DNA from: a virus
Taxonomy: Duplodnaviria; Caudoviricetes
Length of the DNA stretch: 39,304 nt
Virus record (IMG/VR): IMGVR_UViG_3300027419_000016
Coordinates: 1 to 39,304 of that record
Direction: 5' to 3' (one strand)
The notes under the pieces are model-generated. The model saw only the letters and a program-made list of their open reading frames with translations. It was not told where the DNA came from and ran no database searches. The translations under genes and the position numbers were made by a program. Below, in pieces: positions 12,337-39,304 of the stretch; the first letter of the stretch is position 1; each line of letters starts with the position of its first letter.

Positions 12337-15300
12337 TTATCTCTGTCCATACAATGTCGCAACTGATCCAGCGACAAATGACCCTGCCGATGGAATAACG
12401 TCGACACGGGTAATTGCGCTTGTGCTACGCCACTCACCTGCGTTGCGGAAGTTCCACATATCAGCGGCGTTGTTACCGAGGCGTGCACCGGACTCAGATT
12501 CGAATGACTTGTACAGCGTGGTGTCAGCGTAGTTATGAATAATTACCTTCCCAGAACCAATCCTACCTGCTCCGACAGAAGCAGCGGACATTGCCCCAGC
12601 ATCATAATATGTCTGGTTGATGCTTCCACCCGAGAAGCTGAAGTTCGTGCCGTTCAAGATGATTCGTGAGAAGTCGTAGTTTGCATTCGCGTCGTTGTTC
12701 ACACGGATGTACGCGACAGCGTTCGTTGCTGCGGTATCGCTCCGGCCACTCCACACCACGATGAGGTTCCGATAGCCAGATGGGATATTCGTAAACGAGT
12801 ACGACGCTGCCGCTCCTGACGCTTCGTCGAGCTTTACGAGATCTCCGACAACCTGCCAGCCAGAATCATAGACTTGGAGCTGGTTATTCGTCGTATCGTA
12901 CGCCATTGGGGTAAGTCCGGTGAATGCTGTCGGAGTCCCAGACGCTTCTCCTGCCATCGATGGGAAGTAGAAAAATCCGGTCGTTGCGTTCGTAGCGAGT
13001 GCAGCGTTCCCGACGACGACAGACCCGGTATTCATAACACGCAAGTCAGGAGTCGTGTCTGTAGTAACACGGAACTTCGTCGATCCAGCACCAGATGCAG
13101 TGTTCGTCACATCAACGTCGAATGAGTGGATGACGAATGCAGCGTTTAGTGTCGTGGTGAAGTTAAAGACGTTCCCGACGTTCGATGTCTGCTCGGCGGT
13201 CGCAACGTTTAACCGGCCGTCCTTGTACTGCCGGAACCGTTCAGATCCGTCTGTTTTCATATAGATGAGCGACGACGCAACAGCCGATGACGTGTCAGTG
13301 AGATCAATAAGTAGTCCGTGATATGTATATGCACCTGCAACTGCAGAGTTAAACGTAAACGCTCCACCGAGGGCTGCTTTGTTATTGTCGCCAGCAGCCG
13401 AGAGCACCGAGACTGTCCCGCCGAGGAACTGGTACATCGGCGCGTAGATTCTCCCGTCTTTCCCGACAGCGAACATTTCTGTTCCACCGACCGTCGTCTT
13501 GATGAGGCGGCTGGCAGCAGCAGATGCTATGTCCGTAACGGCGATGAGGAGGCCATTATCTGTAAATCCGGCGTTGTTCCATGTCTGAGTTGAAGAGATA
13601 CCGCTCGTATATGACCCAGAGTTTAAGTTGACAGTATGGAGTAAGCCACCGACCATATTCATCTGAAGCGTGTTGCTGCCAGACCCTAGATTGAATACCC
13701 GAGAAGTCGTCGACGATGCCGTGTTCGTGACTGCGACCTTGAACCCTGTGTACGAGTACGTCCCGTTGTTAAATGTAATATTTAGGTCATTCGCAGCAGT
13801 CGGGTTCGCTGTGTCTAGCGTAGCAACCTGGAGAAGGTTCCCCTTAATCCCTTGCTGGAAGTACGCCGAGCCGATCGTGAACCGGAATGAATACGAGGAG
13901 ACAGCCGCAGCAGTCGGCGTAACGTTCTGTGAAAACCCAGCAAACGTGACTGCCGCGTTATTCCAGGTTTGTGTCGCAGTAATTGCCGGAGCTGATGCCG
14001 TAATCGTCCCACCAGTCAATGTCGCGCGAGCGAACGTCGGCGCAGCAGCCGTGTGAATATCTTGTGGCGTCGAGAGCGTAAGCGTTGACCCAGATGGCGT
14101 AACCGTAATCTGGTTCGTCGTCCCAGCAATCGTCAGGTCGCCTGTGAGTGTATTGAGACTCGTTACCCCGCCAGCGCCGGCACTCGATGCAATCGTGACG
14201 GTATCCGTTGCGGCATCTGTCGTGATCGTAATGTTTGATCCAGCAGCCAGCGTAAGCGTATCAGTCGCTGTATCTGCGACAACATCGTCTTGCCCGGCGA
14301 CTGCGATGGTCTTAAACGTGAGCTGGTCGCCAGTATTCGATCCAGACGTAGCCTGAACGACTGCCTGCTCTGCTGACGTAAGATGATAATACTCACCAGT
14401 AGCCCCGCCTTGAATACCAGAGAGATCGTTGTGGCTCGTTACACTTGAGCTACCGAGAACGATATCAAACGCACTGTCGATCTCCTCAAACGTCGCGGAA
14501 CTCTTCTGAATAATAATCCTCGCAACGAGCGTCGCATATGATGAGATGATTCCAGGGAGTGTTGCTGGTGGAGTGGTGATTTGTGCTTGTGCGAGTAAGT
14601 AATCGCCTTGTCCGTAGACGACATGAACGCTTGAGTCATGGACGACGTACACCCAGTGAACGCCATATCTATTAGCTGTAAGCGTCCCGAGTGTCCCATC
14701 GCCATCATCGTACTGGGTGTTGTCAATTTGGCTCTGCGTTGCAACCGAAGTCCAACCACCAACTCCGTTCCTGTACCAGTACGTAAACCTGCCAGCACCT
14801 GAGCTGTCGAACGCAGTGGTTGTGAACCGATTAACGAGTTCCGCCCATAGGACGCCAGCAGTAACCGCAATGTTCCGTGTCCCAGTTTCACTGACGATCA
14901 TCCCTGACGCACGTTTGATCGGGTACACTTCTTCGCCGAATAACTGAACTCGACGGTTGAAGTTCCACGCGTTTGTTCCGCAAAGGCGAACAGTTACTGT
15001 TGTCCCAGAACGATATGCGCTACCTAACGTAAACTCACGCGTGAACGAAATAGCATAATAGTTGGTCGTCGCAAGAATCGAGTCTGTCTCGTAGTCGTAG
15101 TAAATGTAGTTGTATGCATTATCCGTTAACGCGAGCGACGCCACTGCATCCCAAGAGACATAATGAACTGTATCACCCTGCCCTTCGTTCAAGGAAGTCG
15201 GTACTGCTGATGGGCCAGCGTCATCTGTTTTCGAGAGTCCACCACCCGCTGCAATCGCAACTGTCCCGTCACCATTATCGGTGATTATTCCACCCCAAAG

Positions 15301-15903
15301 CCTCCCAGACATCGTGATGTTGCTAAACCAATTAAGTTGATCGGTGAAGTCTGACGTGAGTGCGACCGTTCCCGTAGCATCTGGCAGCGTGTACGTTCGA
15401 TTATCTGTATTGGCGTGCGTAAGTGACCCAGCGAACCAACCAATATTAAGATCCAGTGCTGAGTCGGTGAGTGTGATATTCGTACCACTGGCAGCATTGC
15501 TACCAATTGTAAGTGATTCTCCGAGATTTAATCCGCCATAAAGTATCTGACCACCAGCACGGCCAGCTAAAAGCGCGTATAGATCAAATTCATCCTCAAT
15601 GTCCTCAAATGTTTTAGCTGTAATAGTGTTAGCAATACGGTAACCAGCTTGAATCGCCTTAGCAGTTGTGCCACCTTGGGCCCGCGTGACTGTCCAATTG
15701 TGTCCAGCACCTTTGTCTGTGACACGGACAATTTCAGCATTATCAAGTGTCGCCTCCGCCCCATCGGGCCAAATCGTACAATTAAATGGTGCAGCCGGGA
15801 ATCTCCCGCCTTCGCCAGTTGTAATCGTCAATGTTGTGCCCGTCAGTGATGGTGAGGGAGCAACAGTGATAACTGATTCAGCGAGATTCTTATGAGCGTC
15901 CAT
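12337..15903 (-). CDS. Large fibre/spike protein (1188 aa) with internal repeats
   Basis: EIVRVT...TVTRAQGGTTA anchor; G/T/A-rich; repeated T(W/F)NN...VT.TA units; beta-sandwich C-terminus. Confidence 0.8.
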   Translation of the reverse strand: MDAHKNLAESVITVAPSPSLTGTTLTITTGEGGRFPAAPFNCTIWPDGAEATLDNAEIVRVTDKGAGHNWTVTRAQGGTTAKAIQAGYRIANTITAKTFEDIEDEFDLYALLAGRAGGQILYGGLNLGESLTIGSNAASGTNITLTDSALDLNIGWFAGSLTHANTDNRTYTLPDATGTVALTSDFTDQLNWFSNITMSGRLWGGIITDNGDGTVAIAAGGGLSKTDDAGPSAVPTSLNEGQGDTVHYVSWDAVASLALTDNAYNYIYYDYETDSILATTNYYAISFTREFTLGSAYRSGTTVTVRLCGTNAWNFNRRVQLFGEEVYPIKRASGMIVSETGTRNIAVTAGVLWAELVNRFTTTAFDSSGAGRFTYWYRNGVGGWTSVATQSQIDNTQYDDGDGTLGTLTANRYGVHWVYVVHDSSVHVVYGQGDYLLAQAQITTPPATLPGIISSYATLVARIIIQKSSATFEEIDSAFDIVLGSSSVTSHNDLSGIQGGATGEYYHLTSAEQAVVQATSGSNTGDQLTFKTIAVAGQDDVVADTATDTLTLAAGSNITITTDAATDTVTIASSAGAGGVTSLNTLTGDLTIAGTTNQITVTPSGSTLTLSTPQDIHTAAAPTFARATLTGGTITASAPAITATQTWNNAAVTFAGFSQNVTPTAAAVSSYSFRFTIGSAYFQQGIKGNLLQVATLDTANPTAANDLNITFNNGTYSYTGFKVAVTNTASSTTSRVFNLGSGSNTLQMNMVGGLLHTVNLNSGSYTSGISSTQTWNNAGFTDNGLLIAVTDIASAAASRLIKTTVGGTEMFAVGKDGRIYAPMYQFLGGTVSVLSAAGDNNKAALGGAFTFNSAVAGAYTYHGLLIDLTDTSSAVASSLIYMKTDGSERFRQYKDGRLNVATAEQTSNVGNVFNFTTTLNAAFVIHSFDVDVTNTASGAGSTKFRVTTDTTPDLRVMNTGSVVVGNAALATNATTGFFYFPSMAGEASGTPTAFTGLTPMAYDTTNNQLQVYDSGWQVVGDLVKLDEASGAAASYSFTNIPSGYRNLIVVWSGRSDTAATNAVAYIRVNNDANANYDFSRIILNGTNFSFSGGSINQTYYDAGAMSAASVGAGRIGSGKVIIHNYADTTLYKSFESESGARLGNNAADMWNFRNAGEWRSTSAITRVDVIPSAGSFVAGSVATLYGQR

Positions 15904-16365: not shown

Positions 16366-17871
16366 CTAGAGCGACAACAGAATATCAATCGGATCATCAG
16401 TGGCAGCAGCATTGCCGAGTGCCTTACCGATCTTCCGAGATTGATCTTCGGCTGCACCAATTGTCACTGTTGCTGTCCGGGCACTTTCGACATCACCCAC
16501 AAGCAGCTTTGTGACCTTATTCATATCGGCTGGGAAATCAACAACTGTTGCGCCAGCAAGCGTTACAGCTTTAAGCGACGCAGTGTAGTCTCCATCCGTA
16601 CCGACAATTCCAATAACTTTAGTCGTCCCCGCATCAGCAAAAGCTCGCGGAGGAACATTGTAAGCTGGTTGATCGCCCACTGGAACACTCACAACACCTT
16701 TCGAGGCATTACCCGCGGTGATAGTTGTGATTGTCTGTGCGCCAGACGTTTCAGTGAAAGTGATTGTGCCAACTGCATTGCCAGATAATTCAATACCTAG
16801 AATAACACCCCAGTCGGCTTTGACTGTGATAACAGGTGTCACACCAGTCAGAACGATGTCTTCCTTGACTACAGTTACACCACCATTAGTTGTACCGTAA
16901 ATTGAAACGGTTTGTGTGTCTCCAGCTGAATCTGAAACAATTGTTACTGAGTCATTAGCTGGTTGATTAGCAAAGTTGCCGCCAGTATCAGAGTCAATTG
17001 TAACGTTTGCAAACGAGCTATCAACTAATACGCCTACGCGGCCAGCTTTACAGGATTTGAGTCGCGCGCCGTAAGGGATTGGGCCATCTGCAACAGCCGT
17101 GAAATTGCCGTAGATACCCATAAACATCGCGGCATCAACAACCTGCGCACCCTCGTCGTTAATCCCGACAATGTTCGCCTCGTTAGTGTCAGCCTCAACA
17201 TAATCGCCTGCACCGTCGACAGAAATTAGGCGATTTGTATTGATTGTGCCTGTGCCAGTTGTATCTGTACGAAGTTTTCCAAAGGCAAGCGCATTCAATT
17301 CATCAGTTTCGGCAGTCAACCCTGAAAGTTTCTGAAGTTCATCGCGAGTTGCTGTCGTCGTTGGCAACACTGCGTCAAAGTACCATTGAGTTGTTGAGCG
17401 GCAGATAAAGACTGCCATACGCTCACCACCCAGGTTAACAGGAGCGTTTGCGCCTGCGCTGTTAATCTGTGCGCCAGTCGCAGGATAAACCTTCAGAGCT
17501 TGTGCGCCAGTATTTACGACAATTACAACGTGGTCTGCTGTACCCGCTGGCAATCGGACGCCAGCCGTACCATCAGCACCAGTCACAATGTTCATCTCAG
17601 CTGTAAGAGCGGTTGCATCTCCTTGAACAGTGCCAGCGGCGGCCTTAGTTGCGCTCGCGCGCGCTAGGCGACCGTCAGGGCTATAGAGAGCGGCTTTACT
17701 CGGTACAGCTGCGCCAGTCGTTGCACCGTCAAGGCGGTTAATTTCAGTGGCGTCAGCTGTCACACCATCAAGAGCAGCCAATTCGGTTGCGATATCGTCC
17801 ATATTCTGGCCGTTGATTACGGCACTATCGAGTGCCGTTCGTCCACGCAAACGACGAGTAACCTTCGTCAT
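16366..17871 (-). CDS. Head fibre / decoration protein with split DUF2190-like cement domain
   Basis: TA...E(I/L)N.L.G repeats; C-terminal half resembles 19236..19625 with a large insertion. Confidence 0.6.
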   Translation of the reverse strand: MTKVTRRLRGRTALDSAVINGQNMDDIATELAALDGVTADATEINRLDGATTGAAVPSKAALYSPDGRLARASATKAAAGTVQGDATALTAEMNIVTGADGTAGVRLPAGTADHVVIVVNTGAQALKVYPATGAQINSAGANAPVNLGGERMAVFICRSTTQWYFDAVLPTTTATRDELQKLSGLTAETDELNALAFGKLRTDTTGTGTINTNRLISVDGAGDYVEADTNEANIVGINDEGAQVVDAAMFMGIYGNFTAVADGPIPYGARLKSCKAGRVGVLVDSSFANVTIDSDTGGNFANQPANDSVTIVSDSAGDTQTVSIYGTTNGGVTVVKEDIVLTGVTPVITVKADWGVILGIELSGNAVGTITFTETSGAQTITTITAGNASKGVVSVPVGDQPAYNVPPRAFADAGTTKVIGIVGTDGDYTASLKAVTLAGATVVDFPADMNKVTKLLVGDVESARTATVTIGAAEDQSRKIGKALGNAAATDDPIDILLSL

Positions 17872-23164: not shown

Positions 23165-24475
23165 CTAAAATTTCCGTGACATTAAACTGGGCAATACTTT
23201 ACCACCCTGATCGGGTTCCGTCTCAGGTGATTTTGGCAGGCTCATATCCCGCTGAAAATAGGCCAAAATGCAGGCATCAGCAAGATCCGGGCTACGGTAG
23301 CCACGCTTTTTGTATTGGTCTTTACTTTCAATGCACCGACGTTCAAATCGATCCATCGACCATTGGCGAGTAGATAGTTCCATGAGCAAATCCTGGTTAA
23401 GTGGCAGTTCAAGATCAGTCACCAGACTGGCAAACGAAAACCACATTTCCGAAATAAGATTGGGGTATTTGTCCTTATCTTTCGGTTCACCACCAAAGTT
23501 AATTGCGATGACATGATAACCACGCTTAATCATCTCATCAACGACACCACCGCCAACCCCGCCATCATCAATTTTGAGTAGTATCCGTGTATCAAACCCT
23601 AGGAAGTCCTCTAATAGATCACACGTCTCAGTCGTGCGTTTTTTCTCGTGAGTTTCCCATTTGAGTGTCTTGCGACCCTGGCGCATCCAAAATACGCTGC
23701 GGTCACCGCCAAACCGGGCTACATCCACCCCGACTTCTTTAAGGCCCGTTAACTCAACCTCCTGATTCATTGCTTTCAGAATATCATCCCGGCCGATGAT
23801 AGCGAACTCATTTTGCGACAATGGCTCCCCAAGCCATTTATGGGTATACAATGCCGGATAGTTCTTCTTATCGTGTTCGATCTCTAGCTGAATCTCTTTA
23901 GTGAGCAGGCCGTGACGTTCGAGGACATCAAAATTGACCATCTTCACATAGGTACGATCCGGCTTATGGAGCACGAATTTCACAAACACTGGGTCGAGTT
24001 CGGTAAATCGGTTGAAGGTGAAGATGATCTGTGACCCTTCCTTACGAATGGTTGGGGTGAGAATGTCCAAGGACTCATTGGTCACTCCTTGAGCCTCCTC
24101 GACCCAACAAATATCAATGCCTTCGGTACTTTTGATCTCGTTGATGTTTGACCGCAATCCTTTGAAGATGAACTCGCTGCCTGTCGCCAGGTTTTTGATT
24201 GAGTCCTTGGTGATGTAGAACTCATCAAACCCATACTTCTCGATAATATCCTTAAGAAGTTTGTGGACAGAATCCTTGATCGTTTTCTGAATCTCCCGGG
24301 TACAGAGAATCCGAAGCTGCTCCCTACGGGATCGAAGAATCAACGCCTCTGCCACCTGATAGCTTTTACCAGAGTTCCGACCACCGTAGAGGACGATGTA
24401 TCGCCAGTAGGGATTGAATAGCTCTTTGAAGGGCTTAAGAAACTCGACCTCAATCGTTGGATTCATCGTCATCAC
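23165..24475 (-). CDS. terL: Terminase large subunit (PBSX family)
   Basis: Walker A GGRNSGKS, Walker B WVEEA, nuclease GVDVARFGGD and SPDLADA. Confidence 0.95.
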   Translation of the reverse strand: MMTMNPTIEVEFLKPFKELFNPYWRYIVLYGGRNSGKSYQVAEALILRSRREQLRILCTREIQKTIKDSVHKLLKDIIEKYGFDEFYITKDSIKNLATGSEFIFKGLRSNINEIKSTEGIDICWVEEAQGVTNESLDILTPTIRKEGSQIIFTFNRFTELDPVFVKFVLHKPDRTYVKMVNFDVLERHGLLTKEIQLEIEHDKKNYPALYTHKWLGEPLSQNEFAIIGRDDILKAMNQEVELTGLKEVGVDVARFGGDRSVFWMRQGRKTLKWETHEKKRTTETCDLLEDFLGFDTRILLKIDDGGVGGGVVDEMIKRGYHVIAINFGGEPKDKDKYPNLISEMWFSFASLVTDLELPLNQDLLMELSTRQWSMDRFERRCIESKDQYKKRGYRSPDLADACILAYFQRDMSLPKSPETEPDQGGKVLPSLMSRKF

Positions 24476-24848
24476 CGACGAATTTTACCAGGGCGGTCTT
24501 TAATTCGAGTTCGCCGCCAAGTTCAGTTTTTTTAGCAAACTCATGACGCATTTTTCGTTCCAAAAACCACTTTGCCGTTTCCGGGTGTTTAAGATCATCA
24601 ACAACTGTCTGCCGTGCCCGCAGAATCGGACCTTCTTTCCATGCCTCTTTTTGCTCGACAAATTCTGGATGACGTTTCTGATAGTCATACAGGGTTGCTG
24701 GATTGATTTCTGCGTACGCACATGCTTCACGATCAGACGCACCAATCATGAATGCTTGACGAAGTAGCTCGACCTTTTCTTTCGTGATTGCTTCAGGTCG
24801 CCCAACCTTCTTTTTGACTTTTATAGTAGGCTGTTTTTTCTTTTTCAT
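24450..24848 (-). CDS. terS: Terminase small subunit
   Basis: GRP plus HTH (GASDREACAYAEI..ATLYDY); overlaps terL. Confidence 0.8.
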   Translation of the reverse strand: MKKKKQPTIKVKKKVGRPEAITKEKVELLRQAFMIGASDREACAYAEINPATLYDYQKRHPEFVEQKEAWKEGPILRARQTVVDDLKHPETAKWFLERKMRHEFAKKTELGGELELKTALVKFVGDDDESND

Positions 24849-24855
24849 AAGCTAT

Positions 24856-24930
24856 TGGAGCGCCGGGGTCAGACTCTCACTGCCCTCTACTCCCTGGATG
24901 GGAGTCGCAACGATTCTTTGCTTCCGGCGC
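24856..24930 (-). tRNA. Non-canonical tRNA-Gly(UCC)-like element embedded in the mom 3' end
   Basis: GCGCCGG/CCGGCGC acceptor, U73, encoded CCA; GCAA/UUGC D stem; ACUCC/GGAGU stem with loop CA-UCC-AG; bulged T arm. Confidence 0.85.
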
Positions 24931-25274
24931 AGATATTCTCCTAGGTATTTTCTCATATCCTGATCTAGTGGCATAAGGAATTTGTGTTTTCCCTTACTAA
25001 TGAAGTATTCAGCCTGTGGGTCAAGATGTTTACGGACTGCCTCAAGTGACTGTTTGACACCCATACTATGGATAGTCTTTGGATGAACTTTTTTACCCCG
25101 GACGATAAATGCACTCCGCGTCCCTTTATTAACATGACCTTCATATAACCAATTGCCTGCCTGATAGATTTTGCCTTCGTGGTTTTGGTCAGCATCGGCA
25201 TAACTGACAATAAGGCGGAGGCCGGGGTTTTGTTTGAACAACATCTTGATTGCAATACTGAGAATCTTGGTGAC

Positions 25275-25292
25275 TGTGTGTGTGTGTGTGTG
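25275..25292. repeat. (TG)9/(CA)9 simple sequence repeat inside mom
   Basis: 18-nt perfect dinucleotide run exactly at the frame break. Confidence 0.95.
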
Positions 25293-25502
25293 CTCAAAGC
25301 GACCCTCGTTAATTCACATACCTGTGTTTGATCTAGTCCGTATGGGCTACCAATGTGGTTGTTGGCCCCACGACTAAAGAGAACGCATCCAATGAACTTT
25401 TCATCCTCCCACACCCCGATCTTCACGAGTTTACCCGCAGGGAGGCTGTGGGAATAGTGAAAACTCTCACAGGCATATTTCGCTGCTTGGTGGGTACACC
25501 AA

Positions 25503-25991
25503 TCAAGCCGTAAATTCATGGCCACATTCCGGACAGGTTACTTGCTTCTCATTGAGTCGATCAAGGCTCGGTGGATTTTCACTGCTTGGTTGGAATCGGT
25601 CAGCCAGATCGGCCAGCGGGGTGGATTTTGAAAGGTCGACATGATAATCATTCAACCGCAATGATGGGACAGCCAGGACTAATTCAGCTAGTTTCTGTTG
25701 GTCATATTCCCCTGCCCGATCATTGTCAGATAAGGCGTATTCCACCCATTCCTTTTCTGTCGGTGCGTCGACGACACTTACCCAAACCTCAGAAATACCA
25801 AGATCCTTGTAAGCCCGCAAACGCATATTCCCACCGAGAACTACCCCGTCCGTCGTTACAATCAACGGCTTGTATTGCCCCAATTGGTTAATTTGCCGTT
25901 TAAGACGATCAAAATCGTCTTTATTGATTGTCCTGGGATTCTTATCCCAATTCTTCAACTTCTCAATCGGCCACAATAGTTTTTCGGCCAT
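25503..25991 (-). CDS. ParB/Srx N-terminal domain protein with C-terminal Zn ribbon
   Basis: KNPRTI, PLIV...VLGGNMRLRA, DNDRAG, CPECGHEF; start after GGGAGG. Confidence 0.85.
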   Translation of the reverse strand: MAEKLLWPIEKLKNWDKNPRTINKDDFDRLKRQINQLGQYKPLIVTTDGVVLGGNMRLRAYKDLGISEVWVSVVDAPTEKEWVEYALSDNDRAGEYDQQKLAELVLAVPSLRLNDYHVDLSKSTPLADLADRFQPSSENPPSLDRLNEKQVTCPECGHEFTA

Positions 25992-26013
25992 AATACCTCC
26001 CACGATTCACCCC

Positions 26014-26488: not shown

Positions 26489-26695
26489 TCATGCCTGTCG
26501 TTGGTAGCGTGTTTCACCGTAGTATTCGTGGATAATATCATGGCACAATCGGCAGATGAGGATGACCATTATGTCTCGCATCGGGTGTTTGTAGTACCGT
26601 GATCCCTTTTTACGTCCCGGCCAAATTGCATGGTGTTCAGTTAGTGGGCCATGGATACCACACAGTGGACAAATACCAAGCTTCTGATTACTCAT
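26489..26695 (-). CDS. Small HNH endonuclease
   Basis: CPLC...TEHH...CRLCH..IH; real start at 26695. Confidence 0.8.
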   Translation of the reverse strand: MSNQKLGICPLCGIHGPLTEHHAIWPGRKKGSRYYKHPMRDIMVILICRLCHDIIHEYYGETRYQRQA

Positions 26696-27083
26696 AGCGG
26701 AAAAACAAATACAGTTGCGTACGATTATTAACGATGGTGTAGAACATGTCGGTCGTGAGTTGGCGCATAATCCAGATCCCCCGGCCCGATACGGCCTGGT
26801 GGTCGGGCAAGTCACGCTCCATCCATTCGCTGTAGTCAAACGTACCCATGTTTTCAACCATGAATTTGATATGTGATGGATAGACAGTTACCTCAAGGGT
26901 AATATCCCAATCGTGAGCGATAGAAACATAATAGGCATTACCCAATGCCTCTCGCACGGCCAATTGCACGTCATACTGCCAATCAACATCAAAACCAGAG
27001 AGGACAATCTTCAGAAACTCAACAAACCGATGAATCAGGCTCGCTGGATAGGTTGCCGTGCTGGTCGTGCCGATTTCCAACAT
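26688..27083 (-). CDS. RsbW-like HATPase_c (anti-sigma / Ser kinase family) protein
   Basis: N-box LAVREALGNA, G1-like VENMGTFD, G2 SGRGIWIM; AAGGAGG RBS. Confidence 0.8.
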   Translation of the reverse strand: MLEIGTTSTATYPASLIHRFVEFLKIVLSGFDVDWQYDVQLAVREALGNAYYVSIAHDWDITLEVTVYPSHIKFMVENMGTFDYSEWMERDLPDHQAVSGRGIWIMRQLTTDMFYTIVNNRTQLYLFFRYE

Positions 27084-27171: not shown

Positions 27172-27241
27172 TGGAGCGAACGAGTGGGTACGAGCCACCA
27201 ACCTGTCGCCGAAGCGACTGCTCTCCTTGAGCTACGTCCGC
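27172..27241 (-). ncRNA. Anticodon-less tRNA-like RNA with Gly-type acceptor stem
   Basis: GCGGACG UA GCUC AAGGA GAGC A GUCGC UUCG GCGAC AGGUU GGUGG CUCGUAC CCACU CGUUCGC U CCA. Confidence 0.85.
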
Positions 27242-27261: not shown

Positions 27262-27897
27262 TCACATGGCAAGAATCTTGTCGGCATACTGCCAACCTTT
27301 GCTTTTTGGGTTTTTAATCCCGCCTTCCCCGGCATTATAGGCTGCCAGGGCTGCCCGCAGGCCAAGACGGTTGATTTTATCGGCCATCACTCCTGAAAAC
27401 CAACGAAGCGACCAGTTAGGATCGAACGCCTGATCAGCTGTGATGTCTGGATGACTCCGGAGGTTGATTTGCGCGATACCGTAATCACCTGTTCCCGATA
27501 TAACGGCTGTTTGGAAACCGGACTCGTGCCTGATTTGGTTAACAAGGACTCGGATATAGGATTGGCTACCGATAGATGATTCGATGATTGCTCTGGTTTC
27601 TTGTTCGGACAATCGTCTGGATTGTGTCCGAGGTGGTGAGTATGATTCGTCTGTTTGCGCGGTAGTAGTCCGAGTATCCCGAGGGATAATAGTATGAATA
27701 GGATCACCGATAACAAAGGTAACATGTTCCTCCTTTTTTGCTACTAAAAAAGTCGGCCGAGGTGGCATCTGTAAAAATGCTACTTCTGACCGACTCAATT
27801 TGTTTTCCGCTCCAGACCATAGTCCTCCAGCACGCTCGGCATATCCTACTACTAAAAGTGTGCAAAGAATGGTTAACGCAATACTTAGTCTGTTAAT
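27262..27897 (-). CDS. Lytic transglycosylase (SLT domain), probably membrane-anchored with an ATT start
   Basis: HESGF, GIAQI, AAYNAG motifs; frame is open upstream through a TM helix to ATT after AAAGGAG. Confidence 0.8.
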   Translation of the reverse strand: MNRLSIALTILCTLLVVGYAERAGGLWSGAENKLSRSEVAFLQMPPRPTFLVAKKEEHVTFVIGDPIHTIIPRDTRTTTAQTDESYSPPRTQSRRLSEQETRAIIESSIGSQSYIRVLVNQIRHESGFQTAVISGTGDYGIAQINLRSHPDITADQAFDPNWSLRWFSGVMADKINRLGLRAALAAYNAGEGGIKNPKSKGWQYADKILAM

Positions 27898-30220: not shown

Positions 30221-31945
30221 TTATAGGTACTGCGTCGCAAACCACGCAAATGGCGTTGGATAGGTAGTTGGATTGATAATTCGCTGTAACAAATACTCAT
30301 TCGAGTTACGGGAGAGCAGGATACTGACATTCGCCTTGGTATTGCTCAGATAGCCGTTCTGTTTGAAAAATGGGATACTGGCACACTTCACTTCGTGAAA
30401 AGCTGCGGCCTCGAATTGGGTGAAGTGGTTGGCATGGTACCAGTTTTTGAACGTGTAGCCGACCTGGTTGCAATCCTGACGCAGTTCCATCCCCCAGAGG
30501 CCATTGGTGAGCGTATTGCCTGATACGAGCGTACCAGAGGCATTGTTGAGGGTAATCGGGATATTGGCAGTTCGGTGTTCAATCGCCATCGTGATCGTAT
30601 TATTCAAGATATTGCTGCTGATGAGCCGTTCCCATTGATTGGCAGTAGAAGTTGCCCGAATCCCGAACCCAATCACCCGACTGAAAGTATTGTTCTCGAT
30701 GGTGACCTCTTTGGCGTAGCGGGCAATTTCGAGGGCTGCTGCGCTATTTCCGGCCCCGCCGGTATTATCAAGAATCTGGTTGTTATTGATATTGACCGTC
30801 TCGGTGGTGTGAAACAGGTAGATTGCCCGCTCAAGGTATTGCAGGAGGTTGTAGCCCATCGTTACGTCTTTGGCGTCTGCAACCACGATCCCCGAGAAGT
30901 TGAGACATTGAACTGTATTGGCACTGATTATCAGATCACGCACACCTGTAATGAGCATCCCCCGCTTGGCGTGCTGTTTATCGGATGGCGGAAGCGGATA
31001 GTACTGGGGTTCGATCCCCTGTGTCGGGTCGCAGGTGGTATCCAGGCCACGCAAAATGTTGGCGGTAATGATAATGTTCTCAGCACGCGGGTTGGTATTT
31101 ACTGTTCCGCCAGGAGTTACGACCACCTCCTCGCTGTCGATGTTGATGAGTGCGCCCTTGACCCCGAAGAATGGTGATCCATTAGACGGATTCGGTGATG
31201 GCCGAAACCAGAGTAATCCTGGGTTTTGCGATGGGTCGATCATGCGCGGAACAACGACGGCCCCAACCCGCTCAGGGCAATCCTGGGGGACGCCATTGGC
31301 GTAGGGACAGAAGACAGCCTGTGATTGCTGCCAGATCGGGAGTGCGCCAGGCAACGACTCAACCGGAGTGTTTGGATAGGTATCGAAAACATAGGCAGAG
31401 GTAAGCGTCGGACTAAAAGATGGGTTTCCGCCATTCCAGTCAGAATCGCCCGCAAAGGCTCCTGCGTGGATGGTCAGGGTGTTGCCAGTAATAGTGAGGT
31501 CCTTGGCTCCCAAGCGGGAATCAATGCCCGCAAACATTCCATCCACCGTGTTGCCAATAATGGAGATCCCATCAGTATTCATGAGCTTGAAACCTGTGCC
31601 GTACCCCAGGTCAGAGCCGTAGGTAAGGGTACTCACAAGCTTCACACTGCTAATGGTGACCCCGGAGACGTTTTCGAGGACAAAGCCGTCCACACGGGCC
31701 GTAGCTGGTGTCAGAACAGTATTTGCTTGGCCGAAGATCGTTTGTCCGTTTTTGGGGTGGATCGCAGCCGTCAGTGGTATCTGCTCATCCGGTAAGCGCA
31801 GACAGGTATTTTCTGGTTGTGCTTGGACTTGAGCCGGGATGTCGGCCGGGGTGAGGTCAACGGGGTCAGTGCAGTCGGCAGCTTGGGCAGATTGAACAGT
31901 GAATAATAGCCCGATTGCCATAAGAATTATGATGAGTATTTTCAT
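30221..31945 (-). CDS. Exported right-handed parallel beta-helix (pectin-lyase/NosD-like) protein
   Basis: Signal peptide ending AQA; repeated I.I.GNT / NN.I rungs; several Cys. Confidence 0.8.
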   Translation of the reverse strand: MKILIIILMAIGLLFTVQSAQAADCTDPVDLTPADIPAQVQAQPENTCLRLPDEQIPLTAAIHPKNGQTIFGQANTVLTPATARVDGFVLENVSGVTISSVKLVSTLTYGSDLGYGTGFKLMNTDGISIIGNTVDGMFAGIDSRLGAKDLTITGNTLTIHAGAFAGDSDWNGGNPSFSPTLTSAYVFDTYPNTPVESLPGALPIWQQSQAVFCPYANGVPQDCPERVGAVVVPRMIDPSQNPGLLWFRPSPNPSNGSPFFGVKGALINIDSEEVVVTPGGTVNTNPRAENIIITANILRGLDTTCDPTQGIEPQYYPLPPSDKQHAKRGMLITGVRDLIISANTVQCLNFSGIVVADAKDVTMGYNLLQYLERAIYLFHTTETVNINNNQILDNTGGAGNSAAALEIARYAKEVTIENNTFSRVIGFGIRATSTANQWERLISSNILNNTITMAIEHRTANIPITLNNASGTLVSGNTLTNGLWGMELRQDCNQVGYTFKNWYHANHFTQFEAAAFHEVKCASIPFFKQNGYLSNTKANVSILLSRNSNEYLLQRIINPTTYPTPFAWFATQYL

Positions 31946-32575: not shown

Positions 32576-32781
32576 GCTTGCTCCTTTGGTGTCTGTTCGT
32601 GTTCCCGGTGACAAGTATCGACCATATCCTGCATCAGACGAAGATCCTGTTTCATTTTCCCCCAGGTTTCCTCAAGATTACGTAGATCACCTGCCATATT
32701 GCCGATAGCAATGACCTTGCCGAACTGGTAAGCAATCATATTACTCAGGATAACCAGGATAAAAAGAGGTAGTTCACTCAT
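32572..32781 (-). CDS. Small membrane protein
   Basis: GGAGG RBS; N-terminal hydrophobic helix. Confidence 0.6.
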   Translation of the reverse strand: MSELPLFILVILSNMIAYQFGKVIAIGNMAGDLRNLEETWGKMKQDLRLMQDMVDTCHREHEQTPKEQA

Positions 32782-33043
32782 TGGCTTCCTCCAGAAGTTT
32801 CTCGTATTTATTAACAATGGCATTTTCTATGGCAGTGTAAGATTCCCGACTGGTCGGAACGACGTAGTTCACTTGTGTATCACCTAATTTTTTTCCGGGA
32901 AATACCAACCGATAGCCACCTTTCATGCGTGTATAGATTGCAATCGAGGCGATGGATAACTGGTTGTCGATGGTGCAATTAGCGAATGCGACCAGGCCGT
33001 CCTTTGGTCGGACGGGGATAATCTCGATGTTTGTAACTGTCAT
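32774..33043 (-). CDS. spoVG: SpoVG-family nucleic-acid-binding protein
   Basis: M.VT.I.I.......LVAFA...ID....I..I.I......L.FP.KK pattern. Confidence 0.75.
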   Translation of the reverse strand: MTVTNIEIIPVRPKDGLVAFANCTIDNQLSIASIAIYTRMKGGYRLVFPGKKLGDTQVNYVVPTSRESYTAIENAIVNKYEKLLEEANE

Positions 33044-33816
33044 GACCACCCCTTTGCGTATTCCTTTTCGCGCTTTTTGATTGCCAGACATGCCAGGAAA
33101 ATCGGGATATTAGCCTCATGTTCCTCTTTACTCATCTCATGGACGGCAGGAACGCCAGTTTCCTTGTCGATCCGCAGCAGCATCTGATTACCAATCACTG
33201 GCCCATGTTCTTCCTCATAGGCGAGCCGATAGCCTGTCACCTGATAACGCATATCGGTGTAGATCCCACCAGAGGTCTTGTTGTCGATTAGGGTCAGTAC
33301 ACCATCCACATAGGCTAGTAGGTCAAGTAACCCAACGTATTCATACTTTTGCGAAAATACGAGTCGTTCAGCAGCTACAAACACAACATGGTGGTCACGT
33401 TCCCACGATAGGAAGGCGTTAATGCCTGGCAAGAGGTTGATGTCATCCGGCAGCGGTGGAAGCTCAGTTTTATTGATCTTGGCGTTGGCATAACTCTCAA
33501 TCCAATCATGGACAAGGCCACCGATGGTCGCCGCCCGATCCCGGGCAAGTTCGTACTGTTTGACCGATTCCTCGACAATCGGCAGGATCTCCTCGACTGA
33601 CAGCATTTGTCCAGCTTTGCCGTCCAAAAAGTTGAGAATATGGCTGGCATTGAGTCGCGTCGCCCAGGGCAGCAATGCCCGGGATTTATCGAGGACGCCC
33701 GTTGCTCCGGTAACAGAAACAAGATAATCTTTCCGGCCCTTCAGCTGGTACCGATGACTTTCCGGCCAGAAATCGATCTCAACTTGATCGTTATACAGTC
33801 GCTGGGTCAGTTTCAT
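33040..33816 (-). CDS. PD-(D/E)XK exonuclease-like protein
   Basis: SVT...VLDK, A.IG..VH, E.LV, G.LDL, IDNKT, Q..GY motifs. Confidence 0.85.
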   Translation of the reverse strand: MKLTQRLYNDQVEIDFWPESHRYQLKGRKDYLVSVTGATGVLDKSRALLPWATRLNASHILNFLDGKAGQMLSVEEILPIVEESVKQYELARDRAATIGGLVHDWIESYANAKINKTELPPLPDDINLLPGINAFLSWERDHHVVFVAAERLVFSQKYEYVGLLDLLAYVDGVLTLIDNKTSGGIYTDMRYQVTGYRLAYEEEHGPVIGNQMLLRIDKETGVPAVHEMSKEEHEANIPIFLACLAIKKREKEYAKGWS

Positions 33817-37846: not shown

Positions 37847-38146
37847 TTAGAGGGATTTTCTAGCGAATTGAATGAACTCGATTGTCTTTTTAATCGCACT
37901 CTTAAGGGTTTCGTAGGCCCCAATTGCACCGATCCCAAGGGCGACCGTCGTACCGGCAATGGCATCGATATTGTCTTGGGTGAGCATGTCCTGAGAAAAC
38001 GCATAGCCGACGGTGGCAATTCCAGCCAGACCGAAAGCGATGATCTTGGCATTATTGCTGGTCACAGGCACGCCGTCAGTTTTTTTAGCGGCCTGGACAA
38101 TAGCAGCTACGACGGCTGCCAAGATAGTAAAGGTTGCGGATGTCAT
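37847..38146 (-). CDS. Putative holin
   Basis: 99 aa, about three TM segments, GAYE..K motif; coupled to the endolysin. Confidence 0.75.
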   Translation of the reverse strand: MTSATFTILAAVVAAIVQAAKKTDGVPVTSNNAKIIAFGLAGIATVGYAFSQDMLTQDNIDAIAGTTVALGIGAIGAYETLKSAIKKTIEFIQFARKSL

Positions 38147-39057
38147 TTCTCCTCCTCACGAATGAATTGACGCAGTAGGTCGGCAAACCCACTTTTGATC
38201 TTTTGCCACGGTGTCATGTTGAGAATACCATTCTGCAATGCCTGAATTTCCCGATCTTTAGCCCCCAACTGCGATTTTAGGTCACTAACCACTGTATCCT
38301 GCATGGCTTTAGTTTTCTCGCGTTCTAGGGCAAATAATGCCTCCATACGTGCCTGTTCTGCTTTGCGGATTTCATCATAGGCCTGTTCACGTTGGGCGAC
38401 GGCCTGCGGACTTTGCGTGTAAAACAGCACAATATCCCGCATGACATGATCTTCTCCGCGCTGGATCGACTCCATAATGACATTGGTGTCATTCTGACGG
38501 CCCACGGAATCAATCTCGCCAAGGATTCCCTGGCGTGCGCCTTCCAGGGTTCGAATGATCACGAGATTGATGAAATGGCGCAAAGCATCATCTTCACGAA
38601 TCAACTTGGCTGCATGTTCATTGTAGGGTAATGATGGCATAGGAACCTCCATGTTTTGCTTGGGATGTAACCAACCTAGGACGCCTGTATAATCATGTCC
38701 TTGAACGTGTGCGACCCCCGTGCCACCTGTATTGGGCCAATTTTGATCGAAGGATGTGAAACCACGTTCCGTTCCACTCATAAAAATTGCGATATGCCCA
38801 AATGGCCCAACTTCTTCGCCCCAGATCATAATATCGCCCGCCCGTGGGACGCCTGTTGATGTGTTAGGGATACGTTCGTAATACTCAGGTAGATAGGTAT
38901 CCCAAACATCTTTAGCCCCCGAGACAGGCGGACTCTGGGGGATATTTAGCACCTCTTTGACGTACTGACGGTAGACATCCATGCACTGCGTGCCATAATA
39001 GCCGTCGTAGTCGATCTTCTTGCCATCATATTTGTCGATGAACTCCTGTAAGGTCAT
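38143..39057 (-). CDS. Endolysin: CHAP domain plus helical / coiled-coil C-terminus
   Basis: DYDGYYGTQCMD (Cys), GHIAIF (His), DQNW; start 39057 via ATGA overlap. Confidence 0.9.
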   Translation of the reverse strand: MTLQEFIDKYDGKKIDYDGYYGTQCMDVYRQYVKEVLNIPQSPPVSGAKDVWDTYLPEYYERIPNTSTGVPRAGDIMIWGEEVGPFGHIAIFMSGTERGFTSFDQNWPNTGGTGVAHVQGHDYTGVLGWLHPKQNMEVPMPSLPYNEHAAKLIREDDALRHFINLVIIRTLEGARQGILGEIDSVGRQNDTNVIMESIQRGEDHVMRDIVLFYTQSPQAVAQREQAYDEIRKAEQARMEALFALEREKTKAMQDTVVSDLKSQLGAKDREIQALQNGILNMTPWQKIKSGFADLLRQFIREEEK

Positions 39058-39304
39058 GCACCCGCCTTTTGGGTCGCTTCCCAATACTCTAATACCTTTT
39101 CCAGATTAGTCTTGAGTTTTCCAAGCGTTTTCTCATTGGATTCCGTTGCCTTGCGGTCGTCACGAATCATCTGGCGAATTTCAGAGAGATCCCGAAGCTG
39201 TTGAGCATCGGCGTCCTGAAATGATTTCATCATGGGAATAATAAACTCAAAGCGTGCCAGCATTTCGCTCAGGCCATCAATCTTGCTCGCCCCGGTAGCC
39301 AAAT
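39054..39304 (-). CDS. 3' part of the origin-spanning membrane coiled-coil protein
   Basis: In frame with 1..395. Confidence 0.8.
   Translation of the reverse strand, partial: LATGASKIDGLSEMLARFEFIIPMMKSFQDADAQQLRDLSEIRQMIRDDRKATESNEKTLGKLKTNLEKVLEYWEATQKAGA
39178..39304. repeat. Terminal direct repeat, right copy
   Basis: Identical to 1-127. Confidence 0.95.

What the first reader, a model, noticed from the sequence alone, without database searches (positions are those of the whole stretch)
24852..25525. Mom gene switched OFF by a (CA)9 microsatellite: candidate phase-variable DNA hypermodification
Seen: the longest dinucleotide run I noticed in the genome (25275-25292) sits exactly at the frame break. 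(CA)8 gives ...ELTRVALSTHTHTVTKILSIAIKMLFKQNPG..., a continuous 223-aa protein, and both halves are otherwise intact. Known: slipped-strand repeats switch bacterial mod methyltransferases on and off; Mu Mom is toxic and blocks restriction. Inference: progeny are a mix of modified and unmodified genomes, hedging between ordinary and modification-dependent restriction.
Basis: partly seen in the sequence, partly recalled or inferred. Interest (0 to 1): 0.85.

Follow-up and report, generated by a model that had tools for sequence, protein, structure and literature searches.

The report
Slipped repeat silences phage Mom cassette
A groundwater phage carries an otherwise intact Mom-like DNA-disguise gene knocked out of frame by one extra CA in a nine-unit repeat, likely a young, reversible slip rather than a proven on/off switch, and the gene's tail hides a conserved glycine-tRNA look-alike that likely supplies the enzyme's glycine.

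Summary
(CA)9 at 25275-25292 is the genome's only dinucleotide run above 4 units. It splits a Mom-family gene between the equivalents of Mu Mom's essential R111 and S124. Eight units restore the loop length of 110 of 118 homologs, and both halves are as conserved as intact homologs.

Switching is not shown. Every assembly seen has 9 units, no raw reads were served, and none of 193 distinct other mom genes has a dinucleotide run of 5 or more. The idea has a precedent in the T2 agt contingency locus. I found no evidence for a nuclease that targets the Mom mark.

It keeps the GlyRS identity bases and CCA, and has a bulged T-stem. Across 55 copies, 18 of 22 pairs covary. A Mom-profile hit lies beside 88 of 91 informative loci found from the RNA alone. 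Since Mu Mom uses Gly-tRNA, this is likely a private glycyl donor. My searches did not find it in print, but this scan noted both ideas earlier on other DNA.

Verdict: a real, lineage-specific, probably reversible knock-out of a parB-N/mom/tRNA-like/terS cassette.

The parts
25503..26003 (-). ParB-N-like gene overlapping the mom start; the usual upstream partner
   Evidence: phrog_620 E 7e-27; PF02195 E 5e-4, below the curated cut-off; a similar gene lies within 700 nt upstream in 103 of 205 mom loci
25293..25525 (-). 5' half of the Mom-like gene; holds the equivalents of Mu Mom H58, Y59 and R111
   Evidence: mapping to Mu Mom
25275..25292 (-). (CA)9 tract, one unit longer than the in-frame family length, in the coil between the R111 strand and the S124 helix
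   Evidence: residues 88-93 are coil in the model of homolog P0004
24852..25274 (-). 3' half of the Mom-like gene, out of frame with the start; holds the equivalents of S124 (Thr here), D149 and Y159
24965..25525 (-). Reading frame actually open from the start: 186 aa, of which 102 are out-of-frame residues
24856..24930 (-). tRNA-Gly-like RNA inside the last 26 mom codons: G1-C72, C2-G71, G3-C70, U73, encoded CCA, TCC in a 5-nt loop on a 6-bp stem, bulged A in the T-stem, A8, no GG in the D-loop, no TTC in the T-loop
   Evidence: cloverleaf at -30.7 kcal/mol, z -2.6; alignment and covariation; missed by ARAGORN and Rfam
24450..24848 (-). Terminase small subunit; starts 3 nt after the mom stop and 7 nt after the RNA's CCA, with no Shine-Dalgarno-like site
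   Evidence: phrog_4102 E 8e-21
27172..27241 (-). Second tRNA-like element: Gly-type acceptor, U73 and CCA, but a 4-nt UUCG loop in place of the anticodon loop; link to Mom not shown
   Evidence: ARAGORN tRNA-???; Rfam RF00005 44.3 bits

Best explanation
One extra CA in a lineage-specific (CA)9 tract frameshifts an otherwise intact Mom-like gene, likely by a recent replication slip that loss of one unit would reverse, in a cassette whose tail RNA likely carries the glycine that the enzyme is predicted to put on adenines of the phage DNA. Shown: the frameshift falls between the R111 and S124 equivalents, so the 186-aa product and the internal 130-aa frame each lack essential residues. Shown: the cassette is parB-N, mom, tRNA-Gly-like RNA, terS, and the RNA is conserved and tied to Mom-like genes. 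Inferred: the tract arose in this lineage inside a Thr/His-rich loop, the 8-unit allele was the working one until recently, and the 9-unit allele now dominates the sampled population, whose virions would be unmodified. Inferred: the tract mutates well above background, so ON revertants would be a small minority favoured on restricting hosts. It works like the T2 agt contingency locus as a by-product; that it was selected as a hedge is not shown. Inferred: host GlyRS would charge the RNA, while the T-stem bulge and altered loops would keep it from EF-Tu and the ribosome.
For: Frame arithmetic and rarity of the run. Family loop of 6 residues in 110 of 118 homologs. No other decay: 75 of 83 conserved columns against a median of 73, and a fully paired RNA. 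Nine units in every assembly, so not an artefact. The tract exceeds the 5-unit screen, and T2 agt and T4 rIIA repeat frameshifts revert about 1,000 and 10,000 times faster than point mutations. The clade aligns to Mu Mom: profile E 1.5e-17, and the model of P0004 has 8bv8 as best Foldseek hit, E 3.6e-11, TM 0.72. RNA: 71 of 151 mom tails carry the GCG/CGC acceptor with TCCA against 0 of 2703 background windows; 97.1% of cells paired and 18 of 22 pairs with two-sided changes, slid controls 36-44%; 33 of 36 loci picked by the N-half have it; 88 of 91 informative loci picked by the RNA have a Mom-profile hit within 1.2 kb on the same strand. Mu Mom uses Gly-tRNA(Gly). The genome avoids 6-mer palindromes (309 against 503 expected), which points to restriction pressure.
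Against: No ON allele and no length variant was seen anywhere. The tract is absent from 193 distinct other mom genes. Broken mom genes occur without long repeats: 6 of 194 distinct loci, a set biased towards intact genes. The 8-unit allele would put His-Thr where homologs mostly have Thr-Pro (77 and 92 of 118), and its activity is untested. The whole clade lacks the R151, W181 and W48 equivalents needed by Mu Mom, so the chemistry may differ. Mu itself has no such RNA and works with all three E. coli tRNA-Gly isoacceptors. Palindromes containing Mu Mom's SAS target are avoided as much as others (0.58 against 0.61 and 0.70), which gives no sign of past protection at SAS sites.
Confidence: 0.5

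Rival explanations
1. Young one-way pseudogene: slippage killed a dispensable gene, and reversion is negligible or useless because the repeat has already damaged the loop.
For: Only 9 units seen; no tract in 193 other mom genes; 6 of 194 loci broken by ordinary lesions; the repeat overwrites a Pro conserved in 92 of 118 homologs.
Against: No second lesion in the gene or in the RNA. His at loop position 5 and Thr at position 6 each occur in open homolog genes. A perfect 9-unit tract is above the published instability screen.
Confidence: 0.27
2. One reading: an evolved bet-hedging switch giving a substantial mix of modified and unmodified progeny, balanced between ordinary and modification-dependent restriction.
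For: Exact analogy to T2 agt with TgvAB and McrA/BC. The only long repeat of the genome lies in its only recognised DNA-modification gene. In-frame G9 runs occur at one shared site in two unrelated mom genes, L246 and L286.
Against: No mix seen and the tract is not conserved. No nuclease against the Mom mark in the searches or passages read. The poly-G scan found 2 loci, both in frame.
Confidence: 0.12
3. Leaky expression: nine units are kept because RNA polymerase or the ribosome slips by two bases on the repeat, giving a small dose of a toxic enzyme.
For: A two-base shift re-pairs perfectly on a period-2 repeat (sequence). The OFF frame stays open for 102 codons, against at most 91 in 149 homologs; p about 0.04 by synonymous resampling, 12 of 575 in this genome. 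Mu Mom is lethal when overexpressed.
Against: No stimulatory structure downstream, no canonical slippery heptamer at the break (sequence), no conservation in any relative, and the open-frame statistic is weak and post hoc.
Confidence: 0.08
4. Assembly or PCR-stutter artefact: the real genome has 8 units.
For: The records may share reads: L001 is identical over 20,627 bases and X1 is marked as a possible source.
Against: Different assemblies agree, including Logan's contig at depth 22 and G002, which differs at 11 other positions. An 18-base run is shorter than the 127-base overlap of this assembly.
Confidence: 0.03

Closest known systems
Contingency locus in phage T2 agt (Gomez, Barrick, Waters preprint, PMC12633550; parts 1-2 of 6 read)
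   Same: A simple repeat inside a phage DNA-modification gene whose one-unit slip frameshifts it; reversible; affects restriction.
   Different: agt has a poly-A run and both states and both selections were measured. Here it is a dinucleotide tract in a Mom-like gene, only OFF is seen, and no counter-selecting nuclease is known. The preprint surveyed mononucleotide runs; it also cites a poly-G tract in a BPP-1 methylase, a paper I did not read.
Phage Mu Mom, PF25680, PDB 8BV8 (PMC13219725, PMC7261163)
   Same: GNAT fold; H58, Y59, R111, D149 and Y159 equivalents kept; late-gene position.
   Different: About 20% identity. S124 is Thr here; R151, W181 and W48 are not kept in this clade. Mu has com and no tRNA-like tail and uses host tRNA-Gly; this clade sits between parB-N and terS with its own RNA.
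[quoted passage not shown]
   Same: A coding repeat with a unit not divisible by three, above the 5-unit screen, in a DNA-modifying gene.
   Different: Those are bacterial methyltransferases with tract-length variation across strains; none is seen here.
Staphylococcus aureus non-proteogenic tRNA-Gly NP1-NP3 (PMC7826273; passages read)
   Same: GlyRS identity set kept, 6-bp anticodon stem with a 5-nt loop, altered D and T arms, paired with a GNAT-fold glycyl transferase.
   Different: Those are chromosomal and feed Fem transferases, and weaken EF-Tu binding by base-pair choice. Here the RNA is phage-borne, mostly inside the enzyme's own reading frame, has a bulge between T-stem pairs 50-64 and 51-63, and a D-armless class exists.

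Membership tests
Mom family (PF25680) | Profile match above the curated cut-off | tested here: met
   61.3 and 70.2 bits against cut-off 27.1 for the two halves; phrog_1384
Mom family (PF25680) | GNAT fold like 8BV8 | tested here: met
   Tested on the closest intact homolog P0004, not on the broken gene: pLDDT 95.5, best hit 8bv8, TM 0.72
Mom family (PF25680) | H58, Y59, R111, D149, Y159 equivalents | tested here: met
Mom family (PF25680) | S124 equivalent | tested here: inconclusive
   Thr here; Thr in 34 and Ser in 84 of 118 homologs
Mu-type Mom chemistry (6-NcmdA at SAS) | R151, W181 and W48 equivalents | tested here: not met
   Asp and Lys at the first two, and no Trp in register at the third, across the clade
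Mu-type Mom chemistry (6-NcmdA at SAS) | Glycyl transfer to N6 of adenine | not testable with these tools
   needs an enzyme assay
SSR phase-variable locus | Coding repeat, unit not a multiple of 3, at least 5 dinucleotide units | tested here: met
   criterion
SSR phase-variable locus | Detectable length variants without selection | tested here: inconclusive
   9 units in all assemblies; contigs only, probably not independent; criterion
SSR phase-variable locus | Tract shared by related alleles, with varying length | tested here: not met
   0 of 193 distinct other mom genes; no close sister phage found
SSR phase-variable locus | Measured reversibility and selection for both states | not testable with these tools
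   needs reads or culture
tRNA-Gly-like donor RNA | Cloverleaf supported by covariation | tested here: met
   rows were chosen on acceptor pairing, but the D, anticodon and T stems were not, and 14 of their 15 pairs change on both sides
tRNA-Gly-like donor RNA | GlyRS identity bases G1-C72, C2-G71, U73, C35, C36 | tested here: met
   window copy has all; U73 in 94 of 102 distinct elements; C35 and C36 at 90% or more in A2; set. G1, C2, G3 were required by my scan
Canonical (proteinogenic) tRNA | U8, D-loop GG, U33 in a 7-nt loop, T-psi-C loop, unbroken T-stem (recalled features) | tested here: not met
   window copy lacks all five; bulged A in 45 of 55 full-length and 34 of 34 D-armless copies
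tRNA-Gly-like donor RNA | Expressed, charged with glycine, weak EF-Tu binding, used by Mom | not testable with these tools
   needs biochemistry

The most novel reading that the evidence does not exclude
A switchable, self-supplied DNA-hypermodification cassette. A widespread phage clade of Mom enzymes carries its own EF-Tu-evading glycyl-carrier RNA, often written inside the enzyme's last codons and just ahead of terminase. In this phage a dinucleotide tract toggles the enzyme, the first such switch in a Mom gene, so that modified and unmodified virions arise from one lineage.
Probability: 0.3. Interest if true: 0.82.

Novelty: new variant of a known kind. Interest (0 to 1): 0.6.

Why it matters
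Phage contingency loci have been shown for mononucleotide runs in T-even phages. A dinucleotide tract in an adenine hypermodification gene would extend them to another repeat type, enzyme and phage group, and OFF phages would be a natural probe for defences against the Mom mark. The tail RNA matters more. It suggests how phages avoid competing with EF-Tu for Gly-tRNA, gives sequence evidence that the large uncharacterised Mom-like clade uses glycine, and defines a tRNA-like family that tRNA finders mostly miss (ARAGORN at default called 20 of 151 tails). It is testable in a cultured phage: Arthrobacter phage Shade has an unannotated copy.

Tried and rejected
Read-level test: one DNA run (X1) was listed, kept as contigs; no RNA holder listed. 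Two layings showed one contig and no variant contig, which cannot exclude rare alleles.

G002 as a diverged genotype that kept 9 units: rejected. Of its 11 differences, 7 are non-synonymous and 5 are T>G or A>C, which resembles sequencing error (pattern recalled), so I drew no divergence time from it.

Sister phages: terminase and mom scans found only this phage at high identity; the best cultured terminase is 40% identical. The host was not determined.

Enrichment of repeats in mom genes: none for dinucleotides (0 in 110.9 kb against 17 in 925 kb of flanks). The poly-G scan gave 2 in-frame loci. The frameshift in Salinibacter phage B2_17 lies at a 5-T run only.

Programmed -1 frameshift: no downstream structure. 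Promoter scan at chance level. SAS-site signal in palindromes: none. phmmer of the 3' half alone against PDB found no Mom hit. The joined protein was not folded, so the 8-unit loop is untested in structure.

Literature: ten searches listed no paper on a repeat switch in mom or on a mom-linked tRNA-like RNA. One supplement of PMC13219725 was unreadable and two had no text on its homologs, so gene context there may be unseen. One earlier scan note says this layout is reportedly in print; I could not verify that.

Full report
Observation. The window is a complete circular phage genome with a 127-base terminal repeat and siphovirus-like head, tail and lysis genes. (TG)9 lies at 25275-25292 and reads (CA)9 on the coding strand; no other dinucleotide run exceeds 4 units, and 60 Markov simulations gave at most 5. 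Of 3-13 units, only 5, 8 and 11 open the frame; 8 gives 223 aa and 9 gives 186 aa. Both halves match phrog_1384 and PF25680.

Is nine real? Logan's contig of run X1 covers the stretch in one piece at the same length, depth 22, with no variant contig; the tool skips letters inside repeats, and contigs drop rare alleles. L001, L002 and L040 also have 9. G001 is identical over 20,627 bases; G002 differs at 11 of 21,843 positions with no indel. Those differences are mostly non-synonymous and look like sequencing errors (error pattern recalled). So 9 is the majority allele, but the records are best counted as one population.

What the break does. A profile of 67 clade sequences hits Mu Mom (8bv8_A, E 1.5e-17; hhalign probability 98.4). 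The model of the closest intact homolog P0004 has 8bv8 as best fold match. The tract falls in the coil between the strand holding the R111 equivalent and the helix holding the S124 equivalent, both essential in Mu Mom. The 186-aa product lacks the S124, D149 and Y159 equivalents, and the internal 130-aa frame lacks R111 and S124, so neither should be active (inference). The loop has 6 residues in 110 of 118 homologs and 7 in 7, so 8 units is the family length. The halves keep 75 of 83 conserved columns against a median of 73. Against activity: the 8-unit loop would have His-Thr for the usual Thr-Pro, and the clade lacks R151, W181 and W48 equivalents.

Is it a switch? The tract passes the screen used for phase-variable mod genes. 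T2 agt shows that repeat frameshifts in phage modification genes revert about 1,000-fold faster than point mutations. But phase variation requires detectable variants and reversibility, and none was seen. No dinucleotide run of 5 or more occurs in 193 distinct other mom genes. Homolog loops match a CA repeat at no more than 10 of 16 positions, and a scan for a CA run at this site returned only this phage. Six of 194 distinct loci are broken by ordinary lesions; searches kept only the best 80 of 593 and of 196 loci, which favours intact genes. Among 68 loci chosen through the RNA rather than the protein, none was frameshifted. Two unrelated genes carry an in-frame G9 at one shared site, a possible second hotspot. 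No nuclease against the Mom mark appeared. I read the tract as young, private to this lineage and probably reversible; selection for hedging is not shown.

A split mom-like gene in Salinibacter phage B2_17 is followed by an annotated tRNA-Gly. The same element lies inside the last 26 codons of this gene, at 24856-24930. It folds as a cloverleaf, and ARAGORN and Rfam miss it. In 151 tails from 148 loci, 71 have the GCG/CGC acceptor with TCCA against 0 of 2703 background windows, and 80 of 104 candidates lie inside the reading frame. For 55 full-length copies, 97.1% of cells pair and 18 of 22 pairs change on both sides; slid controls give 36-44%. The rows were chosen on acceptor pairing, but the other three stems were not. 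A D-armless class of 34 pairs at 100%. A bulged A splits the T-stem in 45 of 55 and 34 of 34 copies.

Link to Mom. A model built from the 55 gave 59 hits in 100 further loci (560 kb), 56 within about 100 nt after the mom match (compared by hand; a few are near-twins of training rows). It also hit 33 of 36 loci picked by the N-half, several of them duplicates. In the reverse test, a pattern for the bulged T-arm, acceptor and CCA gave 120 loci from 6 of 64 parts of IMG/VR. A Mom-profile hit lay directly upstream in 68, elsewhere on the same strand within 1.2 kb in 20 (14 downstream), and was absent in 3; 29 had too little flank and were dropped. The pattern came from mom-linked copies, so more distant family members are untested. 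Mu has no copy, Shade has an unannotated one, and Appa has a canonical tRNA-Gly on the opposite strand.

Mechanism. Mu Mom transfers glycine from Gly-tRNA(Gly) to adenine and probably reads the acceptor end. The RNA keeps the GlyRS identity set and the 6-bp anticodon stem described for staphylococcal non-proteogenic tRNA-Gly. Its bulge lies in the first three T-stem pairs, which set EF-Tu affinity. I infer a private glycyl carrier; expression, charging and use are untested. With 9 units ribosomes stop about 35 nt before the RNA. terS follows 3 nt after the normal stop and has no Shine-Dalgarno-like site, so the OFF state may also affect terS coupling; this is speculative. A ParB-like activator of another phage DNA-modifying enzyme is published (abstract only), a lead for the upstream gene.

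Papers seen. PMC12633550: parts 1-2 of 6. PMC13219725: part 1 of 12, sections 10, 13 and 14, passages, two supplements searched and one unreadable. Passages only: PMC7261163, PMC5909438, PMC7826273, PMC7824862, PMC12191111, PMC11868660. PMC13229309: abstract. Canonical tRNA features are recalled.

Novelty and score. Repeat-driven switching of a phage modification gene is known; a dinucleotide tract in a Mom-like gene would be a new variant and is unproven. The mom-linked RNA was not found in ten literature searches. This scan noted both a poly-G mom switch and such RNAs earlier on other DNA; I found the RNA before consulting those notes. Interest 0.6.

Noticed in passing
window 27172-27241 (-): Second tRNA-like element with a Gly-type acceptor, U73 and encoded CCA, whose anticodon loop is replaced by a UUCG tetraloop; it follows a lytic transglycosylase (SLT) gene at 27262-27798. 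It could be another amino-acid carrier or a decoy immune to anticodon nucleases.
   Followed up: partly
window, whole genome: Strong avoidance of restriction-type words: 6-mer palindromes 309 against 503 expected; GGACC/GGTCC 6 against 43; GCCGC/GCGGC 25 against 58; GACGTC and GGATCC absent.
   Followed up: partly
window 26688-27083, 32774-33091, 38143-39084: Anti-sigma-type ATPase domain (PF13581), SpoVG and CHAP endolysin. No integrase, repressor, polymerase or helicase was recognised among the ORFs scanned.
   Followed up: no
window 12337-15903, 16366-17871, 30221-31945: Large ORFs of 1188 and 501 aa with no PHROG or Pfam match inside the structural region, and a 574-aa beta-helix protein.
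   Followed up: no
L212 1501-2234 (Salinibacter phage B2_17, OR896349): Mom-like gene frameshifted at a 5-T run and followed by an annotated tRNA-Gly of the same family.
   Followed up: partly
L246 2849-2857 and L286 942-950: In-frame G9 runs at the same position of two unrelated mom genes; candidate poly-G switches.
   Followed up: partly
L069, L084, L090, L279, L295: Tandem pairs of Mom-like genes; both copies in L090 contain in-frame stops.
   Followed up: no
A3 (for example L003 1657-1725, L088 3588-3657): A 67-70-nt class of the RNA lacks the D-arm but keeps the acceptor, bulged T-arm and CC in the anticodon loop.
   Followed up: partly
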